Notes under the pieces: model-generated
Seen by the model: the letters and a program-made list of their open reading frames with translations, nothing else
The model's database searches: none
Told to the model about the DNA's origin: nothing
Made by a program: the position numbers and the translations under genes
Assembly (NCBI GenBank): GCA_964215915.1
Contig: CAXPEB010000047.1
Coordinates: 29,835 to 93,834, forward strand
Reading direction: 5' to 3'
DNA length: 64,000 nucleotides
Origin: Bacteroidia bacterium
GTDB lineage: Bacteria; Bacteroidota; Bacteroidia; UBA8524
In this document: in pieces, positions 6,064 to 48,798 of the stretch
Layout: each line of letters opens with the position of its first letter
Numbering within the stretch: position 1 is the first letter of the stretch

Positions 6064-7533
6064 TTATTTATAGAATTCATAAAAGCGGTTATTGAAAATC
6101 TCTTCCGGATCATATTTCCTTTTAAACATAAAAAACGAATCTGCCTGGGGGTAGGCCAGCCGCATCTTTTCCGACGAAACATGCAACCGGTAGGGAAGGT
6201 AGAAACTGCCCTCCAGGGATAGAGCCACATCAGTCAGAGCCATGGCAAGTTTCTTCATATCTTCCTCGGCCTCCGCGGTCTTTTTCTGATTGAATAAATA
6301 TACAAAGGCAAATACGGGCTCCCGGGCATAATTGAGATAGCTATCATGATCGGCCTGAACACCCCGGATGGTAATATTCAACAAGTCAATCGGGGAATCT
6401 TTCAGAATCGGTTTGACCGCATCCAGATAGGCATTGAAGTTTTTCAGGGGAATAAAATACTCCTGCAAGATATCGGTGCTGTTACTATCTCTGTTCTCAA
6501 TCATTTCAACCGGATCATTGAGCAATTCATTTCTTGAGAACACCTTGCCACTCGTAACCTTGTTCATGCCCCGTTCCAGATCCCAGCGTAACCGTTTCCC
6601 ATATTCGCTGTCCACGCTGCCGCGAAACACCAGTCGCGTCGATTCCAAACTCCTTTTTTCCCTGTCAGTCATTGGTGTCAGTTGTGAGGCACTGCGAACA
6701 AAATAGTTAAGGGTCGCTTCTTCCAAAAAGTGCTTTTCTGAAATTCGGAGCCGACCAAAGACCAGTTCCACATCGGGATTGTCTGCAATTAGTGCTGCAT
6801 AGGTCTCTACGTACTTAGAAGGAGAAAGTGAAGTACTTTTGTATTCCAGAGCAGCATTGTCTACTACCTGGAGTTCCACATCGAGTATGACGCCAAAAAG
6901 GCCATAGCCACCTAAAACCAACCGGAAGAGTTCGGTATTTTCCTCTCTGCTACAATGCACAATGCGGCCATCTGCCTGCATTAAGCTAAAACCCATAATG
7001 CTTGAGGCAAGTGGTGGCAGGTCCTTTTGCCAACCATGTCCGTTCACGCTAACTGAACCACCGACAGAAAATGAGCTGAAAGCCTGCATGATCGCAATTG
7101 ACTTTCCATACCCATCAAGAAAATACAAAGCATCTTCCCACAGAGCCCCGGAACCGATGACCAAGATATTCTTTGAAGTATCCAGATGCATTTCCTTGTA
7201 TGGAAGCATGTCCACTACGATCCCTCCCGGGTATACGGTATGACCGCCCATACTGTGCCTTGCCCCTGAAAGGGATACCTTCAAGCCCTTTTCCCGGGCA
7301 TAGTGCAAAATCGATCTAAGTTGAAAAATCAGTGCCTCCTTTCCCTGAGCGGCAGGGATCAAGGTATCGATAGGTGTCAGGTCTAAACCGCTGGCATCAC
7401 TTATATACCCTCTGGGCGAATCATGTCCCGGTCCTGTTTCTTTCCATTTGGTAAATAGCAAATGTCTGAATGGTATGGCAACGGCGATGAACATCAAAAA
7501 GATCAGGAGAAGCCAAAAATGTTTTCGTTTCAT
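6064..7533 (-). CDS. FAD-linked oxidoreductase (PCMH-type FAD-binding domain, lactone/alditol oxidase-like)
   Basis: 489 aa. It has an N-terminal TM/signal segment, an FAD-binding signature SGARHSMGGH and a C-terminal oxidase-like domain. Confidence 0.7.
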   Translation of the reverse strand: MKRKHFWLLLIFLMFIAVAIPFRHLLFTKWKETGPGHDSPRGYISDASGLDLTPIDTLIPAAQGKEALIFQLRSILHYAREKGLKVSLSGARHSMGGHTVYPGGIVVDMLPYKEMHLDTSKNILVIGSGALWEDALYFLDGYGKSIAIMQAFSSFSVGGSVSVNGHGWQKDLPPLASSIMGFSLMQADGRIVHCSREENTELFRLVLGGYGLFGVILDVELQVVDNAALEYKSTSLSPSKYVETYAALIADNPDVELVFGRLRISEKHFLEEATLNYFVRSASQLTPMTDREKRSLESTRLVFRGSVDSEYGKRLRWDLERGMNKVTSGKVFSRNELLNDPVEMIENRDSNSTDILQEYFIPLKNFNAYLDAVKPILKDSPIDLLNITIRGVQADHDSYLNYAREPVFAFVYLFNQKKTAEAEEDMKKLAMALTDVALSLEGSFYLPYRLHVSSEKMRLAYPQADSFFMFKRKYDPEEIFNNRFYEFYK

Positions 7534-7670: not shown

Positions 7671-8435
7671 TCAATTCCAGATTCCGTTGGCTTCCGTTAA
7701 AATGACCGGAACATCGTCCGTTACCAGGATGGTATGCTCGTGCTGCGTAACGTAGCCTCCCCTGTTTCCCACCAGGGTCCAGCCGTCAGGCTGTTCCACG
7801 GCTATCGTCGAGTTTGTGGAGATGAAGGTTTCAATCGCAACAGTAGTATTCTTCCTAAACCGCTCCCTGTTGGTTCTGACTCCGTAGTTCAGGATATTCT
7901 CAGGTCCTTCATGCAGGCTTCTGCCCACTCCATGACCTGCCAGGTTCTTAATCACCCGGAATCCGGATTTTTTCGCCTCACTCTCTATCAACTGGCCGAT
8001 CTCCGAAATCCTGACTCCTCCTTTTATCCGGTGAATCGCCTTGTGCAGAATTTGCCTAGATGCTTCAACCAGCGGCTGATGATTGTGAATGTCTTTGCCC
8101 AGGACAAAAGAACCTCCGTTGTCCGCCCAAAAACCGTCCAACTCGGCAGAAACATCAATATTCACCAGATCGCCTTCTTTCAATATTTTTTTCACGGAGG
8201 GAATTCCATGAGCCGCCTCCTCATTCACACTTATACACGAATAACCCGGGAATCCATAAGTCATATATGGCGCTGACCGCGCTCCATACTTTTTCAGAAT
8301 ACTTCCTCCGTACTCATCCAGCTCCTTGGTGGACATCCCTACCTCCGCATATTCTCTCATCAGCCGAAGCGTCATGCCCACTACTTCGCTGATCCTTTTC
8401 ATCCCGATTAGCTCGGATTCATTTGTTATTGACAT
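7671..8435 (-). CDS. map: Methionine aminopeptidase type I
   Basis: ORF 7671..8519. The likely start is the internal Met at 8435 (MSITNESELIGMKRISEVVG), giving ~255 aa. M24 signatures are present: metal ligands in the order D..D..H..E..E, and GHGVGRSLHEGP. Confidence 0.8.
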   Translation of the reverse strand: MSITNESELIGMKRISEVVGMTLRLMREYAEVGMSTKELDEYGGSILKKYGARSAPYMTYGFPGYSCISVNEEAAHGIPSVKKILKEGDLVNIDVSAELDGFWADNGGSFVLGKDIHNHQPLVEASRQILHKAIHRIKGGVRISEIGQLIESEAKKSGFRVIKNLAGHGVGRSLHEGPENILNYGVRTNRERFRKNTTVAIETFISTNSTIAVEQPDGWTLVGNRGGYVTQHEHTILVTDDVPVILTEANGIWN

Positions 8436-9793: not shown

Positions 9794-12700
9794 TTGCTTA
9801 GCAACGGAATGAAAAACTTACTGATCCTCTTATTACTCTCCTTCCATACCCTGTGTGCCCTGGCCCAACCCGGCACCAACGACAGCACGTTTAACCTTAT
9901 TGATCCTGGCTATTCGAATGGACTCGGACCGGATGATCAGATAAGGTCAGTGGCCCTTCAAAACGACGGAAAAGTACTGATAGGCGGCTATTTCACGCAA
10001 TTCAATGAAAAAACCATCAAGCGGATCGCAAGAATCCATGACGGGGTTCCGGATACTTCCTTCAAAACAGGAAACGGCTTCAATGATTACGTGCAATGTA
10101 TTGTTCTGCAAAGCGACGGCAAAATACTGGTAGGAGGCGACTTCACCTCCTACAACGGCGTGACCCGGAACCGGATCGCCAGACTGAATACCGATGGCAG
10201 CCTGGACATGTCCTTTAACCCCGGTAACGGCCCCAACAGCCTGGTAAGAAGTATCGCCATACAAAGCGACGGAAAAATTGTGATTGCCGGAAATTTCACC
10301 ACGTATAGCGGGACGGGTAGAAGCCGGATAGCACGACTGAACAGCAATGGCTCACTGGACAATTCCTATGACCCCGGTTCAGGCTTCAATAGTGCCGTTT
10401 ACAGCATCGGCATTCAGGCCAATGATAAAATCGTGGCCGTGGGTGCCTTTACGCTTTTTGATGGCACCACACGCGAGCGGGTTGCCCGACTTGAAACCGA
10501 TGGGACGCTTGATTTGTCTTTCTTGCCTGGCTTTGGATTTGATAAGACGGCCTATTCCCTGGCACTCGCTCCCAACGGCAATATTGTGGTCGGCGGAGAC
10601 TTCGATTATTTCAACGGAACGGCCCGCAACCGCATAGCCGTGATTGATTCCGGCGGAACCCTGGCAGGTTCGTTTAACCCCGGTAGTGGCTTTAACTCGA
10701 GCGTTTATTCGCTAAGGGTACAGGCCGATGGAAAAATTCTGGCTGGAGGATCTTTTAGCTCGTATGATGGAAATACCGCCAATAAAATCATTCGGCTGGA
10801 GGCTACGGGCAATGAAGACTCCGGCTTTCATGCCGGATCGGGTTTTGGTGGCAGCGGAGGCAATGTCGTTTACTCCATTCAAGTCCACCCGGATGGAAGA
10901 ATCGTGGCAGGAGGAATTTTCCCGAGCTACAATGGCCAGTCGAGAAATAATGTGGTAAGGTTGTTTTCCGACGGCACTCCCGACTATTCGCTCAACAGGT
11001 ATACGGGTTTCAGCGGAAAGGTAAGAAGTATCGTCGTGCAAAAAGACGGTAAAATACTGGCCGGTGGCGACTTCCGGTTTTATAACGGGGTGGAACGCTC
11101 GGGCATCGCCCGCCTGAACAGCGACGGCACGCTGGATACCGGTTTTGCCGTTGGCACCGGCATTAACTACAATATTGCCTATACCGGTGTTCATTCCCTG
11201 TTGTTGCAGGATGACGGAAAGATACTGGTAGGGGGTGACTTCTTTGACTACAACGGAAGCACGGTAAGCGGTTTGATCCGCTTGCATCCGGACGGAACGC
11301 TGGATACCACTTTCAAGACCGGAACCGGCGTGGGCGCGGGGTCCATTTATCATATGGCACTTCAAAGTGATGGCAAAATCATTATCGGCGGTAGTTTTAA
11401 CTCTTATGGTGGCTCTATCAGCTACAAAATCGCACGGATCCATACGGACGGAAGCAGGGACACCTCCTTCAATACCGGGGTATTTCCATATTCCGGGTTT
11501 GATCAGGATGTTAAGGCGCTTGTTATACAACCCGACGGGAAGATCCTGGTGGGTGGTGGTTTCAGCAGATACCGGAATACCTTTGTCAGCAACCGTATCC
11601 TCAGACTAAACCCGGATGGAAGCCTGGACCCCAACTTTTTGCAAACCAATGGCTTCAGCGGAGGAGGGGTTGAGACAATCGGCCTGCAGGCTGATGGCAG
11701 GATCGTGGTGGGTGGAACATTCACTTCCTTCAACGGCACAGCCAGAAACAAAATGGCAAGGGTGGAATCTGACGGAACACTGGATGCCTCCTTCTATCCC
11801 GGAAGCAATGGCTTTAACGGGACGGTAAGTGAGCTGATCGTGCAGGGCGACGGGAAGATTCTGGCCGCCGGAACATTTACCCAATACAACCTGGTCGATT
11901 ATAAACGTATTATACGACTCAACTCAAACGGAACGGTCGATAACGGGATCGACTTCCATACGGGGTTCCCCGATGATGTAGAGACCATTGCCTTACAGCC
12001 CGATGGGAAAATCCTGGCCGGAGGAGTCTTTACTTCGTTTGATGGCTATGGAAGAAACCGGATTGCCCGTATTAACAACACCTGTGTTCCCAACCTGATC
12101 GTGATTGGCGCTTCTGCCTGCGACAGCTTTGTGTTCAACAACCAAACGTACAAGGCCTCTGGGATTTACCAACAGCAGTTCACCAATGCCTATGGCTGCG
12201 ATTCCACCATTCAGCTTAACCTGACAGTACACGCTTCTAGCGGCAGCAACCTCATAATCACCGCCTGTGATACGTTTGCTTTCCTGGGTCAGCAATACAC
12301 CAGCTCCGGTATTTATACCCATGTGATACCCAACAGCGTCGGTTGCGATTCCACCATTACCCTGGACCTCACCATTAACAACAGCACGTCGCAAAGTATT
12401 ACCACCAGCGCATGCAGCAGCTATATACTGAATGGACAGACGTATACCGCTTCGGGCACTTATGTTCAGATGATGACGAACATGGCGGGTTGTGATTCCA
12501 TTATCACGCTGAATCTGACTATTAACGACGCGGATACGGGTGTAAGCCGCACAGGCCCCAACACTTTGCAGGCTAATGCCATCGGGGCCGTGTATCAGTG
12601 GATTGATTGTGACAATACCACCACCCCAGAAATACCCGGTGCTACCGGCAGGACTTTTACGGCTACCCAGAATGGGCGCTATGCGGTACGCGTGACCGAG

Positions 12701-13003
12701 AATAGCTGCACTGGCACTTCTGCCTGTCATACCATTAATAGTGTAGGTATCGAAGACCCGCTGATCCCGAAGGTGGCTCTTTACCCCAATCCGGCAGGTT
12801 CCACAGTAACTCTGGTGTCCGAGGCCCCGCTGAATGGTGCAGACATCCGGCTGAGAACCATGGACGGCAGGCTGATCGGGGAAGAAACTGCCGTGGAGGG
12901 TTCGGTACATACCCTTGACCTGACTCGCCTGGCTCCCGGCATCTACCTGGTTGAAATAACCCAACAACACAGCGTGCTGCGAATCAAACTTGTGAAGGAG
13001 TAG
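9794..13003 (+). CDS. Delta-60-repeat cell-surface protein with cysteine-containing repeats and a type-A T9SS C-terminal domain
   Basis: 1069 aa with a signal peptide. About 13 tandem repeats carry DGKILVGGDF..YNG..RNRIARLN.DGSLD.SFNPG (delta-60 repeat pattern). Four ~60-aa repeats then have C..F.F.GQ.YT.SGIY......N..GCDS.I.L.LT. The C-terminus ALYPNPAGSTVTLV...GIYLVEI fits a T9SS CTD. Confidence 0.8.
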   Translation: MLSNGMKNLLILLLLSFHTLCALAQPGTNDSTFNLIDPGYSNGLGPDDQIRSVALQNDGKVLIGGYFTQFNEKTIKRIARIHDGVPDTSFKTGNGFNDYVQCIVLQSDGKILVGGDFTSYNGVTRNRIARLNTDGSLDMSFNPGNGPNSLVRSIAIQSDGKIVIAGNFTTYSGTGRSRIARLNSNGSLDNSYDPGSGFNSAVYSIGIQANDKIVAVGAFTLFDGTTRERVARLETDGTLDLSFLPGFGFDKTAYSLALAPNGNIVVGGDFDYFNGTARNRIAVIDSGGTLAGSFNPGSGFNSSVYSLRVQADGKILAGGSFSSYDGNTANKIIRLEATGNEDSGFHAGSGFGGSGGNVVYSIQVHPDGRIVAGGIFPSYNGQSRNNVVRLFSDGTPDYSLNRYTGFSGKVRSIVVQKDGKILAGGDFRFYNGVERSGIARLNSDGTLDTGFAVGTGINYNIAYTGVHSLLLQDDGKILVGGDFFDYNGSTVSGLIRLHPDGTLDTTFKTGTGVGAGSIYHMALQSDGKIIIGGSFNSYGGSISYKIARIHTDGSRDTSFNTGVFPYSGFDQDVKALVIQPDGKILVGGGFSRYRNTFVSNRILRLNPDGSLDPNFLQTNGFSGGGVETIGLQADGRIVVGGTFTSFNGTARNKMARVESDGTLDASFYPGSNGFNGTVSELIVQGDGKILAAGTFTQYNLVDYKRIIRLNSNGTVDNGIDFHTGFPDDVETIALQPDGKILAGGVFTSFDGYGRNRIARINNTCVPNLIVIGASACDSFVFNNQTYKASGIYQQQFTNAYGCDSTIQLNLTVHASSGSNLIITACDTFAFLGQQYTSSGIYTHVIPNSVGCDSTITLDLTINNSTSQSITTSACSSYILNGQTYTASGTYVQMMTNMAGCDSIITLNLTINDADTGVSRTGPNTLQANAIGAVYQWIDCDNTTTPEIPGATGRTFTATQNGRYAVRVTENSCTGTSACHTINSVGIEDPLIPKVALYPNPAGSTVTLVSEAPLNGADIRLRTMDGRLIGEETAVEGSVHTLDLTRLAPGIYLVEITQQHSVLRIKLVKE

Positions 13004-13066: not shown

Positions 13067-14653
13067 CTAAGACCCGAAACTCAATTGAAGGGTATGACCC
13101 GGCGAATGTGGCCCGGTGAGATATCCCTTAAACGGCAATCTGGAATGCATCACCAGAATTCCGCCCTTGGGTATCCGTACCGGAATTTCGGCCCCTTGCT
13201 GAATGAGCAACTCAATCTCGTACGGAGTCAACTCTCTGTGGTGCAAACCCTTTATGATACGCAGGGAGGTTTGTTCATTACGGTTTTCTCTAAGCTGTAT
13301 CCGTATGACCAAAGAATTACGGTCATTCGACAGCTGTTGCCAACCCTTCCTAACTTCCGGAGCACTATAGTAAGGGTTAAACTCAGCCCAAACATGTTCC
13401 GGACTAAGATTAGAACTCTTTAGGATTTGATCGATAGATTCTTTGTGCCACAGGGATTTGGTCAGTTCTGCCAGCTTCTCCGGCGGTATACCCGGGTTTT
13501 CGGCACAAAGCCTATGGGCCTGACTCCTTAAATGACGGCATTCGCGCTCTGTGTAAACCTGTTCCAACACATGATACCCCTTCTTTGCCAGGATGGAAGG
13601 AAGTTTTTGAATAACCTCTCCATTCATTTCCATCCGGTAATGATTCAGGCCCGCTTCAATCCGATCAAACAAGCGCTTGCGAAGCCTGGAGGGTTCCAAA
13701 ACCCGAATAGTCTCTCCCAATCCCAGTAACACCTTCTCCAGTTCAAAGTTGTGCTGCACCTGCATTTCGAAGATCATCCCAAAATGATTTCGTTCCACCA
13801 ACTTCTGACTGGCATGCAGAGGCTTGGTAAGCAGATAGGGCGCTGATTCCATTGTGGCAAAGAAGCGAACCGTTTCAGGAATAGCCTGCGGGCTTACCGT
13901 TACACCGATGACATTTTTAAAATAGTTCCGGAAAAAGTCCTCTTCCTCTAACTGCGACTCCTCATCCATAATTTTAACACCCTCCATCCTATCCAGGGCC
14001 AGTAACTGATAGCTTCGGCTAGTTTCTCTGTGACCCAATACAAACCAACGGTTCTGGTACTCCTTCAATAGCCCGGGATGAAACAAGATATTTTGAGCTG
14101 CTCTGGCTTTGAAAGACTGGTAGGTAATCAGAGTCTGTTTCTTGTTCATTATTGCGTTATACAATACTTCCATCCAGTGCAGGCCCTTCAGATTTTCGTT
14201 TGACTCAAGATCTATAATGGGTCTACCCTTGGTGCGGGAAACCTGTACTTTGTCTTCGAGTCGCTGTACGATTCCTCCCAGATCTTCAAAATGAGAAAAC
14301 CCTTTAAACTGCTTGAGCAAATTGACGGCCTCGGTCAGTTTGTTCAAGTCCTGATCAGTTAGCGGGATATTGGTGATGGAATATTCAGGGTCTTCGTAGC
14401 TGTAGTATTTCTTGTCTGTGATGATGATCGGCGCGTTATATCCCAGTTTTTCACTTCGCATCATCTGGATGTCCATCTGTACGGTGCGCCGGCTTACTCC
14501 TTTATCAATTCCTTCGAATTCGTATAGCGCCTCGGAACAAGCATCGATAAGATCCTCAAGAGTCCATTTTCGGTACCTGTTTTTCAGGCAGTTATCGATG
14601 GTGGTATAGCGCAGGAGAGCATTGCGATTAACGGGCATGGTGAAAATTTTCAA
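13067..14653 (-). CDS. HTH-WYL-WCX family transcriptional regulator with an additional ~190-aa C-terminal domain
   Basis: 528 aa. The layout is an N-terminal winged-HTH region, then a WYL-type domain (LITYQSFKARAAQNILFHPGLLKEYQNRWFVLGHRE), then a WCX-like segment (IRVLEPSRLRKRLFDRIEAG). The unassigned C-terminal part contains WHKE and ...ILVMHSRLPF motifs. Confidence 0.75.
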   Translation of the reverse strand: MKIFTMPVNRNALLRYTTIDNCLKNRYRKWTLEDLIDACSEALYEFEGIDKGVSRRTVQMDIQMMRSEKLGYNAPIIITDKKYYSYEDPEYSITNIPLTDQDLNKLTEAVNLLKQFKGFSHFEDLGGIVQRLEDKVQVSRTKGRPIIDLESNENLKGLHWMEVLYNAIMNKKQTLITYQSFKARAAQNILFHPGLLKEYQNRWFVLGHRETSRSYQLLALDRMEGVKIMDEESQLEEEDFFRNYFKNVIGVTVSPQAIPETVRFFATMESAPYLLTKPLHASQKLVERNHFGMIFEMQVQHNFELEKVLLGLGETIRVLEPSRLRKRLFDRIEAGLNHYRMEMNGEVIQKLPSILAKKGYHVLEQVYTERECRHLRSQAHRLCAENPGIPPEKLAELTKSLWHKESIDQILKSSNLSPEHVWAEFNPYYSAPEVRKGWQQLSNDRNSLVIRIQLRENRNEQTSLRIIKGLHHRELTPYEIELLIQQGAEIPVRIPKGGILVMHSRLPFKGYLTGPHSPGHTLQLSFGS

Positions 14654-14945
14654 AAAAATCCGAAAAAGAATTTAACTGCGCAAAAAGACTGCGCAGTTGC
14701 TCCTAACCTTTGAATTGTGAAACACGAACAAAAAGGAATTCGGCCCCGCTCTTCAAATTGAAGAGTGGGTTGCGAAAAAGGAGGTTTCACTTGTTCATTG
14801 ACATATCCGCATAGTGATATAAAGATCTTTCCGAAAGGAAAGCGCAGATGTTTTCAGGTACGGACCTGCTTCCGGTTTCTGTATAGCCGGAAAGTGCTCT
14901 AAGGAGTATGCTACTTGTCCTGAAATTGATTTGTGTCCAACGCGT

Positions 14946-15047
14946 GTCGGGGGTTCGATTCCCTCTCCTATAGTTTAGGGTAGCTCAGTTGGTAGAGCAG
15001 CGATGTAACGCAGGTTCGAATCCTGCACTCAGTTTTGGTCTGAGTTT
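14946..15047 (+). ncRNA. tRNA-like element that is not a canonical tRNA; candidate Y-RNA-like (YrlA-type) tRNA mimic
   Basis: The first T-arm-like segment is GGGGG-TTCGATT-CCCTC (14949-14965). A canonical D-arm GCTC-AGTTGGTA-GAGC follows at 14983-14998. Only 11 nt later comes a perfect T-arm GCAGG-TTCGAAT-CCTGC (15010-15026). A hairpin ACTCAG-TTTTGGT-CTGAGT plus TTTG follows at 15027-15048. No anticodon stem-loop fits, because the D-stem and T-stem are separated by 11 nt where about 23 are needed. No 7-bp acceptor stem can be paired. Confidence 0.4.
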
Positions 15048-15351
15048 GATTAATGGTTGAATCAACATCCCATGGACTCCAAATCCATCACCGGGACCGC
15101 CTGTCCCCAAATAAGGCAATTGTATCCGGGCGGGAAAAGAGAAACAGAGCGGTGCTTCGGCACCAATCACGGAGTTCCGGGCCGGAAACGGCAGATACCG
15201 CAGGACGACGCGTTTTTCAGGTGATCGCATCCATTCCAGAATGCATTCGGTTGCAGTAAAAATGCCGGTGACTGCTCAAGCAGGTTCCCGCCCCGAAAAC
15301 CGGTTTCTCTTTCCCCCGCCCTATTAAATGAAAATGTAAAAGTAGATTGAT

Positions 15352-16449
15352 ATGAAAAAAGTAATCGTAACACCGGGTCTGGTAGGCTTGGTTTACAAAA
15401 ACGGAAAAACAGAACGTGTATTGACTGAAGGAACCTACTGGATATCCTTGTGGTCTGAAGTGCGCATGTTTGCGATGAACCTGGCATTTCAACCGAAAGA
15501 GAGTCTGGAAGTAGCCTTGCAATCGGAAGTTTTGCAACCCTACCTTGAAATAGTAGAGGTGAAAGAAGGAGAAATCGCTCTGCGTTATGAAAACAACCGT
15601 TTTGTCGGGGTTCTTTTTGCCGGTAAGCATGCTTACTGGAAAGGACTGATCGATTACCGTTTCATCATCGACAATATGGAAAACTGCCGTATTCGTCCGG
15701 AAATCGAAAGAAACATTTTGCGCTACCCGGCCTTTGGGTCATTAACCCGGACATTCCGTGTTGACTCATACTGCAAGGCAGTGTTAAGTATAGAAGGAGA
15801 GGAAGACAAGATTCTTGAACCGGGAGAATACCTGTTCTGGAACAACCGTAAGGTTATCTCCGTTATTCCGGTGGATATGCGTTCTCAGATGATGGAAGTT
15901 TCCGGACAGGAACTGCTTACCCGCGATAAAGCAAGCCTTCGGTTAAGTTTATTTGCTTCCATCCGGGTAAATGATATCCGCAAAGCGGTATTGGAAAATA
16001 CAGCCTACTCCAAACAGGTATACACCATCCTGCAATTGGCCATTCGTGAATTTGTCGGGACCAAAAGCCTGGATGAAATCCTGGAGAACAAGGAGATGAT
16101 TTCCGACTACGTGATGAAAAACAGCAAAGCTGCCATTGCGGAAACCGGAGTAGAGTTAAGCAGCTGCGGGGTTCGTGACATCATCCTTCCGGGAGAAATG
16201 CGCGAGATCTTTAATAAGGTGCTGATTGCGGAGAAACAAGCCGCAGCCAACGTAATCATGCGCCGGGAAGAAACCGCATCCACCCGTTCCCTGTTGAACA
16301 CCGCCAAACTGATGGAAGAAAACGAAGTGCTCTTCCGTCTGAAGGAAATGGAATACGTGGAACGTATCGCCGAAAAAATCGGGAACCTGAGCGTTACCGG
16401 TAACGGAACCCTGATCTCACAGTTAAAAGAGATTTTTGTAAATAAGTAG
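15352..16449 (+). CDS. SPFH/band-7 (stomatin/prohibitin-like) domain protein, soluble, co-operonic with rtcB
   Basis: 365 aa. The C-terminal two thirds show an SPFH core pattern (VDMRSQMMEVSGQELLTRDKASLRLSLFASIRVNDIRKAV...CGVRDIILPGEMREIF) followed by a coiled coil. There is no hydrophobic N-terminal anchor. The N-terminal region looks like partial SPFH-like duplications. The stop lies 17 bp before rtcB. Confidence 0.75.
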   Translation: MKKVIVTPGLVGLVYKNGKTERVLTEGTYWISLWSEVRMFAMNLAFQPKESLEVALQSEVLQPYLEIVEVKEGEIALRYENNRFVGVLFAGKHAYWKGLIDYRFIIDNMENCRIRPEIERNILRYPAFGSLTRTFRVDSYCKAVLSIEGEEDKILEPGEYLFWNNRKVISVIPVDMRSQMMEVSGQELLTRDKASLRLSLFASIRVNDIRKAVLENTAYSKQVYTILQLAIREFVGTKSLDEILENKEMISDYVMKNSKAAIAETGVELSSCGVRDIILPGEMREIFNKVLIAEKQAAANVIMRREETASTRSLLNTAKLMEENEVLFRLKEMEYVERIAEKIGNLSVTGNGTLISQLKEIFVNK

Positions 16450-16465
16450 CGGCTGGGGACCACAC

Positions 16466-17902
16466 TTGGTGGTCCCCATTATGATTGAATTCATGACTAT
16501 TACAAGCGAAGAACTGATAAAATGGAATATTCCAAAAGGCCCGGAATTCGGAATCTGCCTTGATATTTTGAATGCTCTGGATGAAAAATCCTGGAGCAAG
16601 AAGTCTGCGAAACAGGAAATCGATAAAATCTTATCAAACCCGGAAACAAAAAGTCATCCGGCATTTAATGCCCTGAAACAAGTGGTAATACAACGCGAGG
16701 CCAATAAAACCATTGCCGTGGCTGAAAAGGCAAGCAGTTATACGATTTATGGAGAAGAAGGAATAGAAGCGGGAGCTCTGAAGCAAATGGATACTGTGAT
16801 GCGTCTTCCCATTTCCCGTGCCGGAGCATTGATGCCAGACGCACACCAGGGTTACGGTTTACCCATTGGCGGAGTATTGGCTACGGAAAACACCATTATC
16901 CCTTACGGAGTGGGTGTGGATATAGGATGCCGTATGTGCCTGAGCATCTTCGATATCCCGGCAATCCATATAGAACAAAACCGGGAACGTCTGAAAACAG
17001 TTCTAAACCGGAGCTCCAAATTCGGCAAAGCTGTATTCCAAAAACCGCAGGATCATGAAGTACTGGCCAGCCCCTTGTTTAATGAGATTCCATTATTAAG
17101 GGCCCTTCAGGAAAAAGCAGCCAGGCAGATAGGCAGCTCCGGAGGAGGAAACCATTTTGTGGAATTTGGGATATGTGAAATAGTGGATCAAGACAACGAA
17201 TTGGGAATTCAGCCAGGCCAATACTTGTCATTACTCAGCCATTCCGGATCACGCGGACTCGGAGCCAGCATTGCCGGGCATTATACCCGGCTTGCCAAAA
17301 CACAGACCAGGTTGCCGGATGAGCTAAAACACCTGGCATGGCTTAATCTTGATAGTGAGGCGGGACAGGAATACTGGCTGGCAATGAACCTGGCAGGAGA
17401 CTATGCCAGCGCCTGTCATCATCAGATACACGCCAAAGTTGCCCGTGACTTTCAGCTGGAACCTTTGGCCATGGTTGAAAACCACCACAATTTTGCCTGG
17501 AAAGAAACCCTTGAAGATGGAAAGGAATACATTATTCACCGAAAGGGAGCTACACCGGCCGGAAAAGGGGTCTTAGGAATAATTCCTGGCTCCATGACTG
17601 CGCCTGGCTTTATTGTACGTGGGAAAGGGCTCTCAGACTCGTTGAATTCCGCCTCCCACGGAGCAGGCCGGGCCATGTCACGTACCCAAGCAAAGAACTC
17701 ATTGAATGCAAAGGATATGGTTAAACATCTCCAGGACCAGGGAGTTGATTTAATTGGTTCAGGCTTGGATGAGGCACCAATGGCGTATAAAAACATCCAT
17801 GACGTAATGGAAGCACAGAAAGACCTGATAGAAGTGCTGGGAACCTTCCTTCCCAAAGTGGTTCGAATGTGCGGCGACGAAGGTTTCCGGGAAGTGGATT
17901 GA
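16466..17902 (+). CDS. rtcB: RNA-splicing ligase RtcB (3-prime-phosphate / 5-prime-OH RNA ligase)
   Basis: 478 aa with the conserved RtcB motifs MPDAHQGYGLPIGGV, GGGNHFVEFG, HNFAWKE and HGAGRAMSR. A ~100-aa N-terminal extension is not typical of the core enzyme. Several alternative start codons fall in the first 10 codons. Confidence 0.85.
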   Translation: MVVPIMIEFMTITSEELIKWNIPKGPEFGICLDILNALDEKSWSKKSAKQEIDKILSNPETKSHPAFNALKQVVIQREANKTIAVAEKASSYTIYGEEGIEAGALKQMDTVMRLPISRAGALMPDAHQGYGLPIGGVLATENTIIPYGVGVDIGCRMCLSIFDIPAIHIEQNRERLKTVLNRSSKFGKAVFQKPQDHEVLASPLFNEIPLLRALQEKAARQIGSSGGGNHFVEFGICEIVDQDNELGIQPGQYLSLLSHSGSRGLGASIAGHYTRLAKTQTRLPDELKHLAWLNLDSEAGQEYWLAMNLAGDYASACHHQIHAKVARDFQLEPLAMVENHHNFAWKETLEDGKEYIIHRKGATPAGKGVLGIIPGSMTAPGFIVRGKGLSDSLNSASHGAGRAMSRTQAKNSLNAKDMVKHLQDQGVDLIGSGLDEAPMAYKNIHDVMEAQKDLIEVLGTFLPKVVRMCGDEGFREVD

Positions 17903-24036: not shown

Positions 24037-24111
24037 ATGAGCCGAATAAAATGTGTAATCGGCTCATGTTTTGGGTATATTTGAGCCGAATAGCGTACCT
24101 AATCGGCTCAT
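24037..24111. promoter_or_regulatory. Two tandem copies of an imperfect palindrome ATGAGCCGAAT-N9-AATCGGCTCAT upstream of and overlapping the fic start
   Basis: Copy 1 spans 24037-24067 and copy 2 spans 24082-24111. The arms are TGAGCCGAAT / AATCGGCTCA. The second copy ends in the fic ATG. Confidence 0.5.
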
Positions 24112-25240
24112 GCGTTATAACTGGCAACAAACAGACTGGCCCCATTTTCAGTATGATTCGGCGATACTGGAAGGTCTACTCTTCAAGCTGACCGAACAAA
24201 TGGGTAAGCTCAGGGGTGTAATGAAAGCGCTGCCTGAAGATACCCGCATGGAAGCTATTATCGATACCATGGTATCCGAAGCGATTAAAACTTCAGAGAT
24301 CGAAGGAGAATACCTCAGTCGCGAGGATGTAAAATCTTCCATACGGAATAAACTGGGATTGAATAGTCCTCCTGAAAAAGTTTCTGATAAAAAGGCCCGG
24401 GGAGCCGGGGAACTGATGGTAGCCGTCCGGAATACCTTTTCCGAACCGCTGACAGAACAAATGCTTTTTGACTGGCACCGGCTTTTATTACAAAGTGATC
24501 CGGACATCCATACCGGAGCCTGGCGTACTCATGAAGAACCCATGCAGGTAGTGTCCGGTACTCTTGACAAACAACGCATCCATTTCGAAGCCCCTCCATC
24601 CGCAAAAGTTCCCGGAGAAATGAAACGGTTTATTGATTGGTTCAATGACTCGTCCTCCATTGAAGGTCCGGAAATCAAAAATGCTCCGATCAGAGCAGCT
24701 TTGGCTCACCTGTATTTTGAGAGTATACACCCCTTTGAAGATGGCAACGGACGCATCGGGCGGGCCATTGCCGAGAAAGCCCTTTTACAGGGTTATGGTC
24801 ATCCTTTACTACTAAGCTTATCGGCAACCATTGAGGCAAATAAGAAGGAGTATTACCATTCGCTGGAAAAAGCGCAACAAAGCAATGACGTGACTGCCTG
24901 GACGGAATATTTCCTTAATACCGTCTTGTCCGCAGAAAAGTCGGCAGAAGAGCAGATTGATTTCATCCTCGGTAAGGCTCGTTTTTTTGATCGTTACAAG
25001 GGAATACTCAATCAAAGACAACTCACCGTGTTAAGGCGTATGCTGCAGGAAGGCCCCCAAGGTTTCAAAGGAGGTATGTCAGCCAGGAAATACAGGGCCA
25101 TTGCCCAGATCTCAAAGGCAACGGCAACGAGAGACATGCAACACTTGGCGGAAATAGGGGCCTTTAGACCGGTTGGTGCCGGTCGCAGTGCCCGGTATGA
25201 AATCGTACTACCCGACTCCGGTTCCGGCGAAATTCTTTAG
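24110..25240 (+). CDS. fic: Fic family protein (AMPylase-type fido domain with DUF4172-like N-terminus)
   Basis: The Fic motif HPFEDGNGRIGR is present. The N-terminus MRYNWQQTDWPHFQYD is typical of DUF4172-Fic proteins. A C-terminal winged-helix-like tail is present. The ORF is listed from 24071, but the ATG at 24110 matches the family N-terminus. Confidence 0.85.
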   Translation: MRYNWQQTDWPHFQYDSAILEGLLFKLTEQMGKLRGVMKALPEDTRMEAIIDTMVSEAIKTSEIEGEYLSREDVKSSIRNKLGLNSPPEKVSDKKARGAGELMVAVRNTFSEPLTEQMLFDWHRLLLQSDPDIHTGAWRTHEEPMQVVSGTLDKQRIHFEAPPSAKVPGEMKRFIDWFNDSSSIEGPEIKNAPIRAALAHLYFESIHPFEDGNGRIGRAIAEKALLQGYGHPLLLSLSATIEANKKEYYHSLEKAQQSNDVTAWTEYFLNTVLSAEKSAEEQIDFILGKARFFDRYKGILNQRQLTVLRRMLQEGPQGFKGGMSARKYRAIAQISKATATRDMQHLAEIGAFRPVGAGRSARYEIVLPDSGSGEIL

Positions 25241-46254: not shown

Positions 46255-48798
46255 ATGCAACTGACAAAACACAACTTCAAATTGTCAGGAGGGATCTTCC
46301 TCCTGGCTTTACTTTTCCTATTGAGCCTGCCCGTATCGCTCAAGGCCCAGCTTCAGTTCGAACAACAGTTGGAACTGACTTCCTGGTTCGAGGGCTGGAG
46401 CAGCCTGGAGTATTATGACGCGGTGGAACTGCCCGATAAGTCCTTCGCCGTATATATTGGCGGGTATAAGGTCCATCCCAATAACCCCAACCAGATCGAC
46501 CAGGTTTTTTCCGGCCTGATCTTCCTGGATAAATACGGGGAGATCATCCTGGATCCGCAAACGGGCTTACCCAAACATTATTTTTTTGAGATTGGCCTTG
46601 TCAATGACGGGTTTGTCACAAACCCGGAAACCGCCGGTAAGAACCTGCTCTACCTAAGCGACGGCACCTTTGTTATCTATGGGATGGATATGGATAGACG
46701 TTTTACGGTGATCCGCCTGGATATTAACGGCAATATCCTATTCAATAAAAAAATGGTACCGGTTACCGGGCTGCTATGCAACAACCAGCCGGGGCAAACT
46801 CCCGGCGACTTCACCCTTACCGAAGTGTATGATGCCGTGGTCCTCAACCGGAACAAGATACTCTTCCTCTGCGGTTCCACCTACGCTACCGTCGACCCGA
46901 ACAACGTACAGTGCAACCATTATCTCAGCCTGTTGCGTATCGATAAATTCGGAAACTTCGACAACTTCTACTACGAATACCGAAGCCTCCCTGACCATTA
47001 TGATGACCAGGTGGAAGGATGCCGCCTGAAGCCCTCCAAATACGGAGGCTATATCTTCAGCTTTGCTACCCGTTCCATGAGCCAGATTGATGTCTTGTCC
47101 AGCCGTGGACTAGTGGAAGTGAAACCGGATGGAAGCATCAACTGGGTGGCGTGGAACGTGCCTTTCAAAGACTGGATTGAGCTGGAAGATGATCACTTCG
47201 TAAGTGTAGGTTTCCGAAACAGCCATAACCAATTCAACGGAACATTTACCCCCTACGGACAGATCTGTGAATGGAAAGTGATTCCCGCCTGGCAATATGT
47301 CGATGAAATTGCCGGAGCCGAAGTGGAAAATGCGAAGTTCTCCTCTCTGGTAAAAAAAGACGATAAGTATGTCTGCGTCGGGTCCTATAACTGGGCTCCC
47401 CTGCTTACGGCATTCCCTGACGACCTCAGCACCTACCTCACGCAGTATACCTATACGTTTGAAGATGAAAATGCCATGCTGCTGGACATCAGAGAGCAGA
47501 ATGACAACGCCTACCTGATCGGAGGGTTCGGTACGCGGTTCACAAGCAGTCCGCCTTCACACGGAAAACTGGCCTACGCCTGCAATGACCCTTACCTGAT
47601 CCGGCTTCCTGCCGATCTGGAAGGCTGGTGCGCCGAAGGAAGGGAGATTCCCTTCGAAGAGAAATACTTTAACAGCTACTACTCCGAAGGCGGTGAGAAA
47701 CTCAGTGCGGATATTGATTTTGAAAATATGGAAACGGCAACCTTGCTGGAATCCATGGAGAAAGACCCGCTTTGCTGTACCGAGTCGGTTTCCGTAACGG
47801 GCGACGCCTATATCTGCATGCAGGGCGGACTGAGCGTCCTCTCTGCCAACTACACTCCGAACGGAACCGAGAGGATTTACTGGACCCATGACGGGAAAGT
47901 GGTTGCCGGTAGCGATAACGAGGTTAGTATTGAAGTTTCCGAGGCAGGCGATTATTTCTTTTTCGTAGAACTGGCCAACGGTTGCCTCGGTCAGGGTCAC
48001 TTTACGGTACACTACTATTCCAGTCCGGCCTGGGGTGTCCCTTCCTTATTCAGCACACGATGCCTGAATGATCCGGCCTTTAACCTCTACCTGGTCAACG
48101 AACCGGTTCCGGGTACCTGGACCGGCACAGGGGTAACCGGCAGCTTCCCCAATTACCAGTTCGATCCGGAACTGGCCGGACCCGGCCTGCATACCCTCCA
48201 CGTACATTATCAAGACCAGTATGGCTGCGAATGGGATTTTGATATCGATATTCCGGTAGTGGGCCAACCCGTTCAGGCTCCTGCAATCCCCACCAGCTTC
48301 TGTGTTTACAGTGGCCCTTATGCGCTTCCGGCCGGTGGCGACTGGGTGAATTTCAATAACCAGACAAGTATGATACAGATCATTCCGTCCCAGTACTGCG
48401 TAGGCTGTACGCTTGAATTGGTTTACTGCGAGTTCTTCAACAGCGGAAGTACCTATTGTACCATTTGCGACCCGGATACGATCGTGATCACATTCCATGA
48501 CTGTACTCCCGGCAAAAGAGCCCTGGGACTGGAAGAGGCACAACCCGGCACTCAGCTGAGTGCCAGCGTATATCCCAATCCCGCTTCCGACGGAGCAGAG
48601 GTGATCCTGTCACAGAGTTCGGATTACACCCTGATCCTGCGTAACATGCTGGGCGAAGAGGTACAATCGGCACGCTTCAGCGGCAGCAGGTACAAGATTG
48701 AAACGGAAGGTTTGGCCAGCGGACTCTATTTGCTGGAACTGCGAAATGCCCGTAACGAAAGCCTGGTACTTAAACTAACGATTGAGGGGAAACCGTAA
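46255..48798 (+). CDS. Secreted protein with type-A T9SS C-terminal domain
   Basis: 847 aa with a signal peptide (IFLLALLFLLSLPVSLKAQ). The C-terminus VYPNPASDGAEVILSQSSDYTLILRNMLGEEV...GLYLLELRNARNESLVLKLTIE fits a T9SS CTD. Confidence 0.8.
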   Translation: MQLTKHNFKLSGGIFLLALLFLLSLPVSLKAQLQFEQQLELTSWFEGWSSLEYYDAVELPDKSFAVYIGGYKVHPNNPNQIDQVFSGLIFLDKYGEIILDPQTGLPKHYFFEIGLVNDGFVTNPETAGKNLLYLSDGTFVIYGMDMDRRFTVIRLDINGNILFNKKMVPVTGLLCNNQPGQTPGDFTLTEVYDAVVLNRNKILFLCGSTYATVDPNNVQCNHYLSLLRIDKFGNFDNFYYEYRSLPDHYDDQVEGCRLKPSKYGGYIFSFATRSMSQIDVLSSRGLVEVKPDGSINWVAWNVPFKDWIELEDDHFVSVGFRNSHNQFNGTFTPYGQICEWKVIPAWQYVDEIAGAEVENAKFSSLVKKDDKYVCVGSYNWAPLLTAFPDDLSTYLTQYTYTFEDENAMLLDIREQNDNAYLIGGFGTRFTSSPPSHGKLAYACNDPYLIRLPADLEGWCAEGREIPFEEKYFNSYYSEGGEKLSADIDFENMETATLLESMEKDPLCCTESVSVTGDAYICMQGGLSVLSANYTPNGTERIYWTHDGKVVAGSDNEVSIEVSEAGDYFFFVELANGCLGQGHFTVHYYSSPAWGVPSLFSTRCLNDPAFNLYLVNEPVPGTWTGTGVTGSFPNYQFDPELAGPGLHTLHVHYQDQYGCEWDFDIDIPVVGQPVQAPAIPTSFCVYSGPYALPAGGDWVNFNNQTSMIQIIPSQYCVGCTLELVYCEFFNSGSTYCTICDPDTIVITFHDCTPGKRALGLEEAQPGTQLSASVYPNPASDGAEVILSQSSDYTLILRNMLGEEVQSARFSGSRYKIETEGLASGLYLLELRNARNESLVLKLTIEGKP

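What the first reader, a model, noticed from the sequence alone, without database searches (positions are those of the whole stretch)
15352..17902. Atypical partners in the rtcB operon: anchorless SPFH protein with internal SPFH-like duplications, and RtcB with a 100-aa N-terminal extension
SPFH/band-7 proteins are normally membrane-anchored scaffolds. This one has no hydrophobic N-terminus. Its first 170 aa contain two segments (VIVTPGLVGLVYKNGKTERVLTEG and VKEGEIALRYENNRFVGVLFAGKHAYW) that each resemble the start of an SPFH domain. The RtcB here begins with about 100 residues (MTITSEELIKWNIPKGPEFGICLDILNALDE...) upstream of the conserved catalytic core. Both features suggest a specialised complex rather than a housekeeping RtcB.
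Basis: partly seen in the sequence, partly recalled or inferred. Interest (0 to 1): 0.5.

Follow-up and report, generated by a model that had tools for sequence, protein, structure and literature searches.

The report
SPFH–RtcB RNA-repair operon with tRNA-mimic leader

Summary
All three observations hold. The 365-aa SPFH protein has no hydrophobic segment. It carries two extra copies of the β-module that begins an SPFH domain. RtcB has a conserved N-terminal extension of about 85-95 aa. Both N-termini are conserved as protein in hundreds of relatives, so they are coding.

Neither feature is peculiar to this genome. They mark a large Bacteroidota family. In 52 of 75 informative related loci, rtcB lies directly downstream of the SPFH gene.

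The locus matches the Band-7/RtcB/tRNA-like RNA repair system predicted by Burroughs and Aravind (2016). I know that paper only through a citing preprint.

- a divergent WYL regulator;
- a conserved repeat operator, ACTGCGCA-N5-ACTGCGCA, at the promoter;
- a structured leader of about 630 nt. It holds two circularly permuted tRNA mimics of the YrlA type and a pseudoknot, with strong covariation. It has no Rfam family.

Best reading: a damage-induced operon in which a soluble SPFH ring or cage, the tRNA-mimic RNA and RtcB work together in tRNA repair. The assembly is inferred, not shown.

Verdict: new member of a known, uncharacterised kind. Interest is moderate.

The parts
13067..14653 (-). 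Divergent transcription regulator with WYL and WCX domains and a weak PhyH-like C-terminal region. The likely true start is the ATG at 14638 (MPVNRN...).
   Evidence: Pfam WYL E 3.4e-9 and WCX E 2.9e-8. The C-terminal PhyH-like match is below cut-off. A homologue sits divergently upstream of the SPFH gene in 31 of 73 informative loci.
14674..14712 (+). Candidate operator, a direct repeat ACTGCGCA-N5-ACTGCGCA (also read as an inverted repeat AACTGCGCA-N7-TGCGCAGTT). It is followed by a Bacteroidetes-type -7 box (CCTTTG, 14707-14712). The transcription start is inferred near 14720.
   Evidence: The motif is conserved at the same place in about 20 loci. It recurs directly upstream of rtcB in L008, L029 and L018. 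The inverted repeat was also picked up. Binding by the WYL protein is inferred.
14720..14868 (+). 5' part of the leader, with hairpins (for example 14745-14769 and 14827-14842). Its sequence is conserved only with the closest relative. Many other loci carry a tRNA-Tyr(GTA) gene or a tRNA array at this position.
   Evidence: The window and L001 intergenic regions are 88% identical, with compensatory changes in hairpins. ARAGORN tRNA calls in related loci.
14869..14920 (+). Conserved 5' domain of the leader RNA. It comprises hairpin H1 (14869-14892, loop GUUUCUGUAUAG), hairpin H2 (14894-14909) and the conserved AUAUGCUGCU stretch.
   Evidence: Alignment A5 and RNAalifold. Helices 1 and 2 are 97-98% paired, and 9 of their 14 pairs change on both sides.
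14939..15004 (+). tRNA-mimic module 1, circularly permuted. It runs: closing stem 5' strand (14939-14943), T-arm (14949-14965), acceptor-like stem closed by a loop (14966-14980), UA, D-arm (14983-14998), closing stem 3' strand (15000-15004).
   Evidence: Rfam YrlA match at 14923-15025, 43.4 bits, E 2.8e-7, below the gathering score of 69. Across the seven helices of alignment A5 (H1, H2, module 1 and the T-arm of module 2), 96.2% of cells pair against 42-52% in slid controls, 176 cells change on both sides against 23-30, and 0 of 500 shuffles reach the observed values. The four helices of module 1 are 83-100% paired. A conventional-order acceptor stem is not supported: 53.8% paired, equal to controls.
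15010..15088 (+). tRNA-mimic module 2, also permuted. It runs: T-arm (15010-15026), closed acceptor-like hairpin (15027-15045), D-arm-like hairpin (15048-15063), anticodon-arm-like hairpin (15072-15088, loop CUCCAAA). The 'anticodon' differs between loci.
   Evidence: RNAalifold on A6 predicts 15 pairs, 13 with compensatory changes. An anticodon-like arm occurs in 52 of 63 loci against 9% of shuffles. Sequences were inspected. The D-arm-like hairpin was read by eye and not tested for covariation.
15093..15117 (+). H-type pseudoknot: GGGAC-CGCCU-GUCCC, an A-rich linker, then GGC pairing back to the hairpin loop.
   Evidence: The pattern (stem, loop, stem, A-rich linker, complement of the loop) occurs in 55 of 63 loci against 25% of shuffles. 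The paired segments differ between loci. The shuffles preserved only base composition.
15118..15351 (+). 3' part of the leader. It has tetraloop hairpins (GGUGCUUCGGCACC near 15150-15165; CCGGAAACGG) and the widely conserved GAUACCG motif (near 15193-15199). No terminator precedes the SPFH start.
   Evidence: The motif recurs across loci. The fold of 14700-15351 has a z-score of -5.06 against shuffles. No intrinsic terminator was found apart from the tRNA-like arms.
15352..15744 (+). SPFH protein, two extra N-terminal β-modules: R1 (aa 1-64, 15352-15543) and R2 (aa 65-131, 15544-15744).
   Evidence: hhalign between modules. AlphaFold strands. Conserved from Met1 in 20 relatives. Module number varies among relatives of 365, 433 and 503 aa.
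15745..16449 (+). SPFH protein, third β-module plus the α/β SPFH core (aa 132-278), long helices (aa 281-344) and a conserved C-terminal tail.
   Evidence: Pfam Band_7. Foldseek matches stomatin, HflK/C, prohibitin, QmcA, erlin and flotillin (E 1e-14 to 1e-9) and major vault protein, which gives the longest alignments.
16454..16478 (+). Hairpin between the two genes (10 bp, 7 of them G-C, no U tract). It overlaps the mechanical TTG 'start' at 16466.
   Evidence: A hairpin of different sequence occupies the same place in L001, L016, L031, L056 and L078. Its function is unknown.
16493..16747 (+). RtcB N-terminal extension (aa 1-85), a helical domain with consensus MKITGxxLxxxGxPEGKAIGxALE.
   Evidence: Conserved in all 26 aligned homologues. 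A profile search found 452 matches. Most of the 150 listed hits match at their N-terminus, and those checked with Pfam are RtcB N-termini or fragments. Others are the C-termini of HD-domain proteins of about 270 aa, and one is an HD+extension+RtcB fusion. The model has four helices, pLDDT 75.
16748..17902 (+). RtcB catalytic core with stop codon.
   Evidence: Pfam RtcB E 1.5e-82. Alignment to Pyrococcus horikoshii RtcB keeps the Cys, His and Asp metal ligands and the SHGAGR histidine. These residues are invariant in A2.

Best explanation
The region 13067-17902 is one regulated RNA-repair module. It consists of a divergent WYL-domain regulator, a promoter with a repeat operator, a leader RNA of about 630 nt, the SPFH gene and rtcB.

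Shown here:
- the gene order and its conservation;
- the operator motif;
- the covarying structure of the leader, which holds two circularly permuted tRNA mimics of the YrlA type and a pseudoknot;
- the lack of a membrane anchor in the SPFH protein and its three-fold β-module;
- an intact RtcB active site;
- a conserved RtcB N-terminal domain that accompanies SPFH linkage.

Inferred:
1. The WYL protein binds the operator and releases or activates transcription when it senses damaged RNA. This is by analogy with WYL regulators that bind nucleic acid and with RtcR, which senses tRNA fragments.
2. The leader is cut out of the operon transcript as a stable RNA, as Y RNAs are in the Salmonella rsr-yrlBA-rtcBA operon.
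3. The SPFH protein forms a soluble ring or cage, as every structurally solved relative does. Its N-terminal β-modules play the part of the repeat domains of the vault protein.
4. The RNA and the RtcB extension bring the ligase to this scaffold, where RtcB reseals tRNAs cut by ribotoxins (2',3'-cyclic phosphate or 3'-phosphate ends joined to 5'-OH ends).
For: Domains.

Family-wide conservation of both N-termini.

Synteny: rtcB lies directly downstream in 52 of 75 loci, and the WYL gene lies upstream in 31 of 73.

Leader RNA: a homologous element was found in 54 of 80 loci by nhmmer. The double T-arm was found in 62 of 80 related loci plus the window by a stricter motif filter. Covariation is strong.

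The intergenic DNA is more conserved (88% nucleotide identity) than the flanking proteins (77% and 68% amino-acid identity).

The operator is shared by the leader-SPFH promoter and, where rtcB has its own promoter, by rtcB.

The SPFH fold matches only ring- and cage-forming relatives and the vault protein.

The extension domain is present in two RtcB subtypes that are only about 29% identical to each other, both SPFH-linked.

Literature: the Band-7 + RtcB + tRNA-like RNA system was predicted by Burroughs and Aravind 2016, as cited in 10.1101/312249. An SPFH gene lies inside the rtc locus of P. aeruginosa (PMC13086221).
Against: No experiment or computation here shows that the three components touch each other.

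Nineteen of 75 loci have no rtcB within 5 kb. Two SPFH-linked RtcBs lack the extension.

The deletion of the rtc-embedded SPFH gene in P. aeruginosa gave no phenotype in the assays of PMC13086221. RNA damage was not among the conditions in the passages I read.

The relative orientation of domains in the SPFH model is uncertain (pTM 0.57).

I could not read the 2016 paper itself.
Confidence: 0.6

Rival explanations
1. The leader RNA is mainly a decoy or a sensor and not a scaffold partner. Its tRNA-like modules, including an anticodon-like arm whose 'anticodon' varies freely, would soak up anticodon nucleases. Alternatively, their cleavage would signal damage and control expression of the genes downstream. 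SPFH and RtcB would then act independently of the RNA.
For: The anticodon-like loop keeps the tRNA loop pattern but not its triplet. [quoted passage not shown] The RNA lies in the 5' leader with no terminator before the SPFH gene. Many relatives also carry real tRNA genes or arrays in the same transcript position. Santamaria-Gomez et al. proposed a sponge role for array tRNAs that are co-regulated with rtcB (PMC8421152).
Against: The RNA is tied to the SPFH gene even where rtcB is absent. That points to a link between the RNA and the SPFH protein. The closed acceptor stems and the conserved non-tRNA domains (H1, pseudoknot, GAUACCG) are not needed for a simple decoy.
Confidence: 0.2
2. The SPFH protein attaches peripherally to the membrane despite lacking a transmembrane helix. 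It would place RtcB at the inner membrane, where imported tRNase toxins enter, in the manner of classical SPFH microdomain scaffolds.
For: Most of the closest structural matches are membrane-associated SPFH assemblies. Some SPFH proteins bind membranes through hairpins or lipid modification (general knowledge).
Against: There is no hydrophobic segment anywhere (maximum hydropathy 0.92). No partner of the NfeD or FtsH type is in the locus. Extra β-modules in front of an SPFH core also occur in the soluble vault protein.
Confidence: 0.1
3. The adjacency is historical linkage in one phylum and has no functional meaning. The N-terminal features would then be neutral lineage-specific decorations.
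For: All 80 loci examined are from Bacteroidota. Nineteen of 75 lack rtcB nearby.
Against: Two very different RtcB subtypes both sit next to the SPFH gene and both carry the extension. The same operator serves both genes. The pairing is also reported in Pseudomonas and 'certain other bacteria'. The N-terminal modules and the extension are conserved at the protein level.
Confidence: 0.05

Closest known systems
Band-7 (SPFH) + RtcB + 'band-7-associated tRNA' repair system predicted by Burroughs and Aravind, Nucleic Acids Res 2016. Known to me only through the citing preprint 10.1101/312249.
   Same: An SPFH/Band-7 protein is encoded next to RtcB together with a tRNA-like non-coding RNA. There is no Ro protein. 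The citing text also says that YrlA-type RNA is occasionally found next to the Band-7 protein.
   Different: The RNA here is not one conventional tRNA look-alike. Covariation supports two permuted modules plus further domains and rejects a conventional acceptor stem. I could not check whether the 2016 paper describes the N-terminal β-modules, the RtcB extension, the WYL regulator or the operator.
rsr-yrlBA-rtcBA operon of Salmonella (Ro60 orthologue, Y RNAs including the tRNA-like YrlA, RtcB, RtcA, regulator RtcR)
   Same: RtcB is co-transcribed with a permuted tRNA-mimic RNA that lies inside the operon. A divergent regulator has a ligand-sensing domain. The order of arms (T-arm, closed acceptor, D-arm, closing stem) is that of YrlA.
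   Different: No Ro/TROVE protein was found among window ORFs of 330-850 aa. No RtcA was found: the ORFs adjacent to the operon and the 330-850 aa ORFs scanned with Pfam gave no RNA-cyclase match. The regulator is a WYL protein, not the sigma-54 activator RtcR. The RNA scores below the Rfam YrlA threshold in the window, and no YrlA match at threshold appeared in 13 relatives. An SPFH protein takes the place of Ro.
Eukaryotic vault particle (major vault protein, vault RNA, TEP1 with a TROVE domain)
   Same: The protein has a row of small β-repeat domains, then an SPFH-like domain, then a long helix. It has no membrane anchor. It is associated with a small structured RNA. Vault protein gave the longest structural alignments, 419-479 columns.
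   Different: There are only two extra β-modules (up to four in relatives) against nine in the vault protein. Sequence identity is 11-13%. The best-scoring matches are stomatin and HflK/C, not the vault protein. No cage has been demonstrated.
Membrane SPFH cages (HflK/C-FtsH, QmcA-YbbJ, stomatin, prohibitin, flotillin, erlin)
   Same: The SPFH α/β core and the following long helices match, Foldseek E 1e-14 to 1e-9. Pfam Band_7 is above cut-off.
   Different: There is no transmembrane or hydrophobic anchor. There is no NfeD or protease partner in the locus. Two duplicated β-modules precede the core.
PaFlo8 (PA14_60630), an SPFH gene inside the rtcR-rtcA-rtcB locus of Pseudomonas aeruginosa (PMC13086221)
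   Same: An SPFH gene is embedded in an RtcB repair locus.
   Different: That locus has RtcR and RtcA. I could not compare the sequences. No phenotype was found for its deletion in growth, virulence, motility, biofilm or oxidative-stress assays.
Long tRNA arrays co-regulated with rtcB in Anabaena (PMC8421152)
   Same: In many relatives of this locus, 1 to 18 tRNA genes lie on the same strand just upstream of the leader RNA and the SPFH gene. Like the cyanobacterial arrays, they are linked to an RtcB system.
   Different: The window itself has no tRNA gene at all. The Anabaena array is controlled by a different repeat and repressor.

Membership tests
SPFH / Band 7 superfamily (PF01145) | Profile match above the curated threshold | tested here: met
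   91.6 bits against a cut-off of 23.6, aa 141-307.
SPFH / Band 7 superfamily (PF01145) | α/β SPFH fold followed by long helices | tested here: met
   AlphaFold model with pLDDT 82.5. Foldseek probability 1.00 to stomatin, HflK/C, prohibitin, QmcA and others.
SPFH / Band 7 superfamily (PF01145) | Membrane anchor (typical of the family, not strictly defining) | tested here: not met
   The maximum 19-residue hydropathy is 0.92, so there is no candidate helix.
SPFH / Band 7 superfamily (PF01145) | Assembly into large rings or cages | not testable with these tools
   This needs multimer modelling or biochemistry.
RtcB 3'-phosphate/5'-OH RNA ligase (PF01139) | Profile match above the curated threshold | tested here: met
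   278.5 bits against a cut-off of 27. No NCBIfam equivalog cut-off is reached, so this is a distinct subfamily.
RtcB 3'-phosphate/5'-OH RNA ligase (PF01139) | Metal-binding Cys/His/Asp residues and the guanylylated histidine | tested here: met
   PDAHQGYG, DIGCRM, GGGNHF, SHSGSRG, NHHN and SHGAGR align with the corresponding motifs of P. horikoshii RtcB. They are invariant in 26 homologues.
Band-7/RtcB/tRNA-like RNA repair system (Burroughs and Aravind 2016) | Band-7 gene adjacent to rtcB | tested here: met
   The genes are 43 nt apart on the same strand. The arrangement is conserved in 52 of 75 loci.
Band-7/RtcB/tRNA-like RNA repair system (Burroughs and Aravind 2016) | Adjacent tRNA-like non-coding RNA | tested here: met
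   Weak tRNA and YrlA matches, with a structure supported by covariation. Whether this is the same RNA that the authors named b7a-tRNA could not be checked.
YrlA Y-RNA-like family (Rfam RF02553) | Covariance-model score at or above the gathering score | tested here: not met
   43.4 bits against 69 in the window. No YrlA match at threshold in 13 related loci.
YrlA Y-RNA-like family (Rfam RF02553) | Permuted tRNA-like domain: T-arm, closed acceptor stem, D-arm, closing stem | tested here: met
   All four helices are present and covary.
YrlA Y-RNA-like family (Rfam RF02553) | Ro (Rsr) protein partner and a Ro-binding stem | tested here: not met
   No TROVE domain among window ORFs of 330-850 aa, and none in the operon. 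A Ro-binding stem was not identified.
WYL-domain transcription regulators | WYL and WCX domains above threshold | tested here: met
   WYL 37.0 bits against 21.8. WCX 34.4 bits against 23.9. The N-terminal DNA-binding domain was not detected by Pfam. DNA binding was not tested.
C-terminal tail of class II CCA-adding enzymes (candidate homologue of the RtcB extension) | Significant sequence or structure similarity | tested here: inconclusive

The most novel reading that the evidence does not exclude
The SPFH protein builds a free, vault-like protein shell in the bacterial cytoplasm. Its wall would be made of the duplicated β-modules. The shell would enclose or dock RtcB, through its N-terminal domain, together with the double tRNA-mimic RNA. 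This would be a dedicated RNA-repair compartment and a prokaryotic counterpart of the vault ribonucleoprotein. The leader of about 500-630 nt would be a new large structured RNA class that is absent from Rfam.
Probability: 0.25. Interest if true: 0.8.

Novelty: new member of a known kind. Interest (0 to 1): 0.5.

Why it matters
The substrates and cofactors of bacterial RtcB are still largely unknown. The Band-7 branch of RtcB systems has never been studied experimentally.

This locus offers a compact, well-defined test case: one regulator, one operator, one structured RNA, one scaffold protein and one ligase. It has clear domain boundaries and hundreds of natural variants.

If the SPFH protein forms a soluble particle with the RNA and the ligase, two things follow. 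SPFH proteins would be shown to organise RNA biology as well as membranes. The link between vault-like and Ro-like ribonucleoproteins and RNA repair would also become directly testable.

If not, the leader RNA is still a large covarying RNA with no family assignment.

Tried and rejected
1. A word-index search with the RtcB extension alone found nothing, not even the protein itself. That search was wasted. The exhaustive profile search worked instead.

3. I tested whether the RNA is one conventional tRNA built from D-arm 1, T-arm 2 and flanking acceptor strands. This was rejected: pairing equals the controls.

4. Membership in Rfam YrlA was rejected at the curated threshold.

5. A phage origin for the SPFH system was rejected: there are no relatives in the viral contig collection. 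The extension domain itself, however, does occur in jumbo-phage-like contigs.

6. The TTG at 16466 as the rtcB start was rejected. It lies in a conserved hairpin, and homologues start at the position of ATG 16493.

7. I looked for Ro/TROVE and other repair genes elsewhere in the window and found none among the ORFs tested. There are no tRNA genes and no Rfam matches at threshold in the 64 kb.

8. The Burroughs and Aravind paper could not be retrieved.

9. I looked for a kissing interaction between the H1 loop and the GAUACCG motif by eye. I saw no convincing covariation and dropped the idea.
Full report
**What is at the coordinates.** The interval holds two same-strand genes. One encodes an SPFH protein (15352-16449, 365 aa). 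The other encodes RtcB, listed mechanically from TTG 16466 to 17902. Pfam confirms Band_7 (aa 141-307, E 7.7e-26) and RtcB (E 1.5e-82).

**The surroundings.** Upstream and divergent lies a 528-aa protein with WYL and WCX domains (13067-14653). Between it and the SPFH gene is a 700-bp gap with no credible ORF. Downstream is a convergent α/β-hydrolase gene. I judge that gene unrelated because it is absent from all 80 related loci.

**Check 1: the SPFH protein has no anchor.** The highest 19-residue hydropathy is 0.92, so there is no membrane helix.

**Check 2: the N-terminal duplications are real.**
- On its own, the N-terminal fragment matches the start of the Band_7 profile at aa 5-39 (E 0.0037, below cut-off).
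- I cut a 16-sequence alignment into three segments and compared them profile against profile.
  - aa 1-64 vs 65-131: probability 94%, E 1.4e-7.
  - aa 65-131 vs 132-178: probability 96%, E 3.6e-9.
  - aa 1-64 vs 132-178: probability 83%.
- The third segment is the true start of the SPFH domain.
- The AlphaFold model (pLDDT 82.5, pTM 0.57) shows three five-stranded β units, then the α/β core (to aa 278), then long helices at aa 281-344.
- The protein is conserved from Met1 in relatives. Relatives of 433 and 503 aa contain one and two more modules.

**Check 3: the RtcB extension is real.**
- The 120 best homologues are mostly 460-485 aa (range 438-501), and nearly all cover the query from MTITS onward.
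- In the alignment they begin MKITG or MTITS, which places the start at ATG 16493.
- The TTG at 16466 lies inside a 10-bp hairpin (16454-16478). That hairpin recurs with a different sequence in five other loci.
- Alignment to solved RtcB structures begins at residue 95. The extension is therefore about 85-95 aa.
- The catalytic motifs are intact and invariant.

**Is this unusual?** Not within its family. A scan of one genome per species returned at least 564 confirmed relatives of the SPFH protein. The best 80 are all from Bacteroidota. Of the 75 loci with enough downstream DNA:
- 52 have rtcB directly downstream on the same strand;
- 4 have it elsewhere within 5 kb;
- 19 have none within 5 kb.

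Eleven of the 52 carry a second RtcB subtype that is only 28-38% identical to this one. Most of those still match the extension profile (E 1e-6 to 1e-8). Only two SPFH-linked RtcBs, each about 390 aa, lack the extension. A WYL homologue lies divergently upstream in 31 of 73 informative loci. Equally, the features are a family norm and not an oddity of this genome.

- Rfam gives a sub-threshold match to YrlA, the tRNA-like Y RNA, at 14923-15025 (43.4 bits against 69, E 2.8e-7). It also gives a borderline tRNA match that lacks an anticodon arm. ARAGORN calls nothing.
- The gap is 88% identical to that of the closest relative. The flanking proteins are only 77% and 68% identical.
- The region folds far better than shuffles (z = -5.06).
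- A homologous element lies 300-700 nt upstream of the SPFH gene, on the same strand, in 54 of 80 loci by single-sequence nhmmer.
- A stricter motif filter finds the double T-arm in 62 of 80 related loci plus the window.

**Structure of the leader, 5' domain and module 1.** On a 22-sequence alignment, RNAalifold predicts 39 pairs, 29 of them with compensatory changes. In the pair count:
- 96.2% of cells pair, against 42-52% when partners are slid;
- 176 cells change on both sides, against 23-30;
- no shuffle of 500 reaches the observed values.

The helices are two 5' hairpins and a circularly permuted tRNA. The permuted tRNA runs: closing stem, T-arm, acceptor stem closed by a loop, UA, D-arm, closing stem.

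**Structure of the leader, module 2 and beyond.** Next comes a second T-arm and a second closed acceptor hairpin. A D-arm-like hairpin (read by eye) and an anticodon-like arm follow. The acceptor hairpin and the anticodon-like arm covary (13 of 15 pairs). The 'anticodon' of that arm is not conserved. After it lies an H-type pseudoknot with an A-rich linker. That pattern is present in 55 of 63 loci against 25% of shuffles. Further hairpins and a conserved GAUACCG motif come next.

**A conventional tRNA reading fails.** A tRNA made of D-arm 1 and T-arm 2 is not supported. Its acceptor pairing equals the controls.

**No Rfam family fits.** Neither the window nor 13 related loci give a YrlA match at the curated threshold. 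I found no terminator between the RNA and the SPFH start. The RNA is therefore probably the operon's leader and would be processed from it. That step is inferred.

**Regulation.** The sequence ACTGCGCA-N5-ACTGCGCA (14674-14698) is followed by a CCTTTG box that resembles the Bacteroidetes -7 element. This pair is conserved in about 20 loci. In three loci where rtcB is separated from the SPFH gene, the same motif sits directly upstream of rtcB. This fits one regulator controlling both genes. That the WYL protein is the binder is inferred from its constant divergent position.

**Structural relatives of the SPFH protein.** Foldseek finds stomatin, HflK/C, prohibitin, QmcA, erlin and flotillin (E 1e-14 to 1e-9), all of which form rings or cages. 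It also finds the major vault protein, which gives the longest alignments (419-479 columns). The architecture (β-repeats, SPFH-like domain, long helix, no anchor, an associated small RNA) parallels the vault protein. Sequence identity is only 11-13%, and I could not inspect the residue-level alignment. I therefore treat the parallel as suggestive.

**The RtcB extension.**
- A profile of the extension searched against 1.84 billion representative proteins gave 452 matches. Most of the 150 listed hits match at their N-terminus; the four of these with a Pfam assignment carry an RtcB domain.
- Three listed hits are proteins of about 207-277 aa with the domain at the C-terminus, and one of them has an HD-domain match. 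One is an HD+extension+RtcB fusion of 662 aa.
- These lie in contigs that look like jumbo phages: many small ORFs, a homing endonuclease and ribonucleotide reductase. One matches a 462-kb phage record.
- Against solved structures, the profile weakly hits the C-terminal tails of two CCA-adding enzymes (E 0.095 and 1.3).
- The four-helix model (pLDDT 75) found no significant structural neighbour.
- The domain is therefore mobile and associated with RNA-end-processing enzymes. Its link to the CCA tail is unproven.

**Comparison with what is known.** A preprint on the YrlA structure summarises Burroughs and Aravind (2016). In certain bacteria RtcB is encoded next to a Band-7 protein and a predicted tRNA-like RNA. 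Occasionally YrlA lies next to the Band-7 protein. The RNA had not been validated experimentally (10.1101/312249). This locus fits that description. I could not obtain the 2016 paper. I therefore cannot say which details it already contains: the β-modules, the extension, the WYL operator, or the two-module RNA with its pseudoknot.

Other related reports:
- An SPFH gene inside the rtc locus of P. aeruginosa has been noted. Its deletion gave no phenotype in general assays (PMC13086221).
- Long tRNA arrays co-regulated with rtcB are known in Anabaena (PMC8421152). This is relevant because many relatives of this locus carry 1-18 tRNA genes just upstream of the leader. The window itself has none.

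**Mechanism and confidence.**
- I am confident (about 0.85) that this is a WYL-regulated operon of leader RNA, SPFH gene and rtcB, belonging to the Band-7 branch of RtcB repair systems.
- I am much less sure (about 0.4) of the working model, in which a soluble SPFH ring or cage organises the tRNA-mimic RNA and RtcB for resealing of cleaved tRNAs.
- The main rival is that the RNA acts as a decoy or sensor for anticodon nucleases.

**Verdict.** The locus is an ordinary member of a predicted, experimentally untouched system.

Noticed in passing
window 14720-15351 (+): The 5' leader of the SPFH-rtcB operon is a large structured RNA. It holds two circularly permuted tRNA mimics, an H-type pseudoknot, tetraloop hairpins and a conserved GAUACCG motif. 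It is conserved across Bacteroidota with strong covariation. tRNA finders and Rfam thresholds do not detect it.
   Followed up: yes
L003-L080, about 600-3500 nt upstream of the SPFH gene (for example L019 2701-3949, L050 3044-4159, L072 2036-3296): Many related loci carry tRNA genes on the same strand just upstream of the leader RNA. There is often a single tRNA-Tyr(GTA), and sometimes an array of up to 18. The arrays are rich in Tyr, Gln, Asp, Asn, His, Lys, Glu, Phe, Leu and Arg species, which are known targets of anticodon nucleases. The window has no tRNA gene.
   Followed up: partly
window 14674-14712; also L008 about 6170-6215, L029 about 6190-6235, L018 about 7720-7770: A conserved repeat, ACTGCGCA-N5-ACTGCGCA, next to a TTTG promoter box. 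It occurs upstream of the leader and, in some loci, again directly upstream of rtcB. It is a candidate WYL operator.
   Followed up: partly
window 13067-13640 (-), C-terminal ~190 aa of the WYL protein: The regulator ends in a region with a weak, sub-threshold match to the PhyH (2-oxoglutarate/Fe(II) oxygenase) family. Relatives either keep this region (matches to about aa 500-528) or stop near aa 340. I did not examine whether the catalytic residues are present.
   Followed up: no
window 16454-16478 (+): A G+C-rich 10-bp hairpin without a U tract lies between the SPFH stop codon and the rtcB start. A hairpin of different sequence occupies the same place in five other loci. It may be a processing or stabilising element.
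   Followed up: partly
L081 4701-5534; L082 6001-7989: The RtcB N-terminal domain also occurs at the C-terminus of HD-domain proteins of about 270 aa, and in an HD+domain+RtcB fusion. Both are in metagenomic contigs with jumbo-phage-like gene content.
   Followed up: partly
P0012, P0015 (433 aa); P0016, P0020, P0043 (501-507 aa): Flavobacterium, Chryseobacterium and Sediminibacterium relatives of the SPFH protein have three or four N-terminal β-modules in place of two. The module number is evolutionarily plastic.
   Followed up: partly
window 9794-13003, 46255-48798, 53410-55701, 58255-60582: Several large secreted repeat proteins carry type IX secretion C-terminal sorting domains, which fits a Bacteroidota origin. 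A Fic/DOC gene lies at 24071-25240. None of these is linked to the finding.
   Followed up: no
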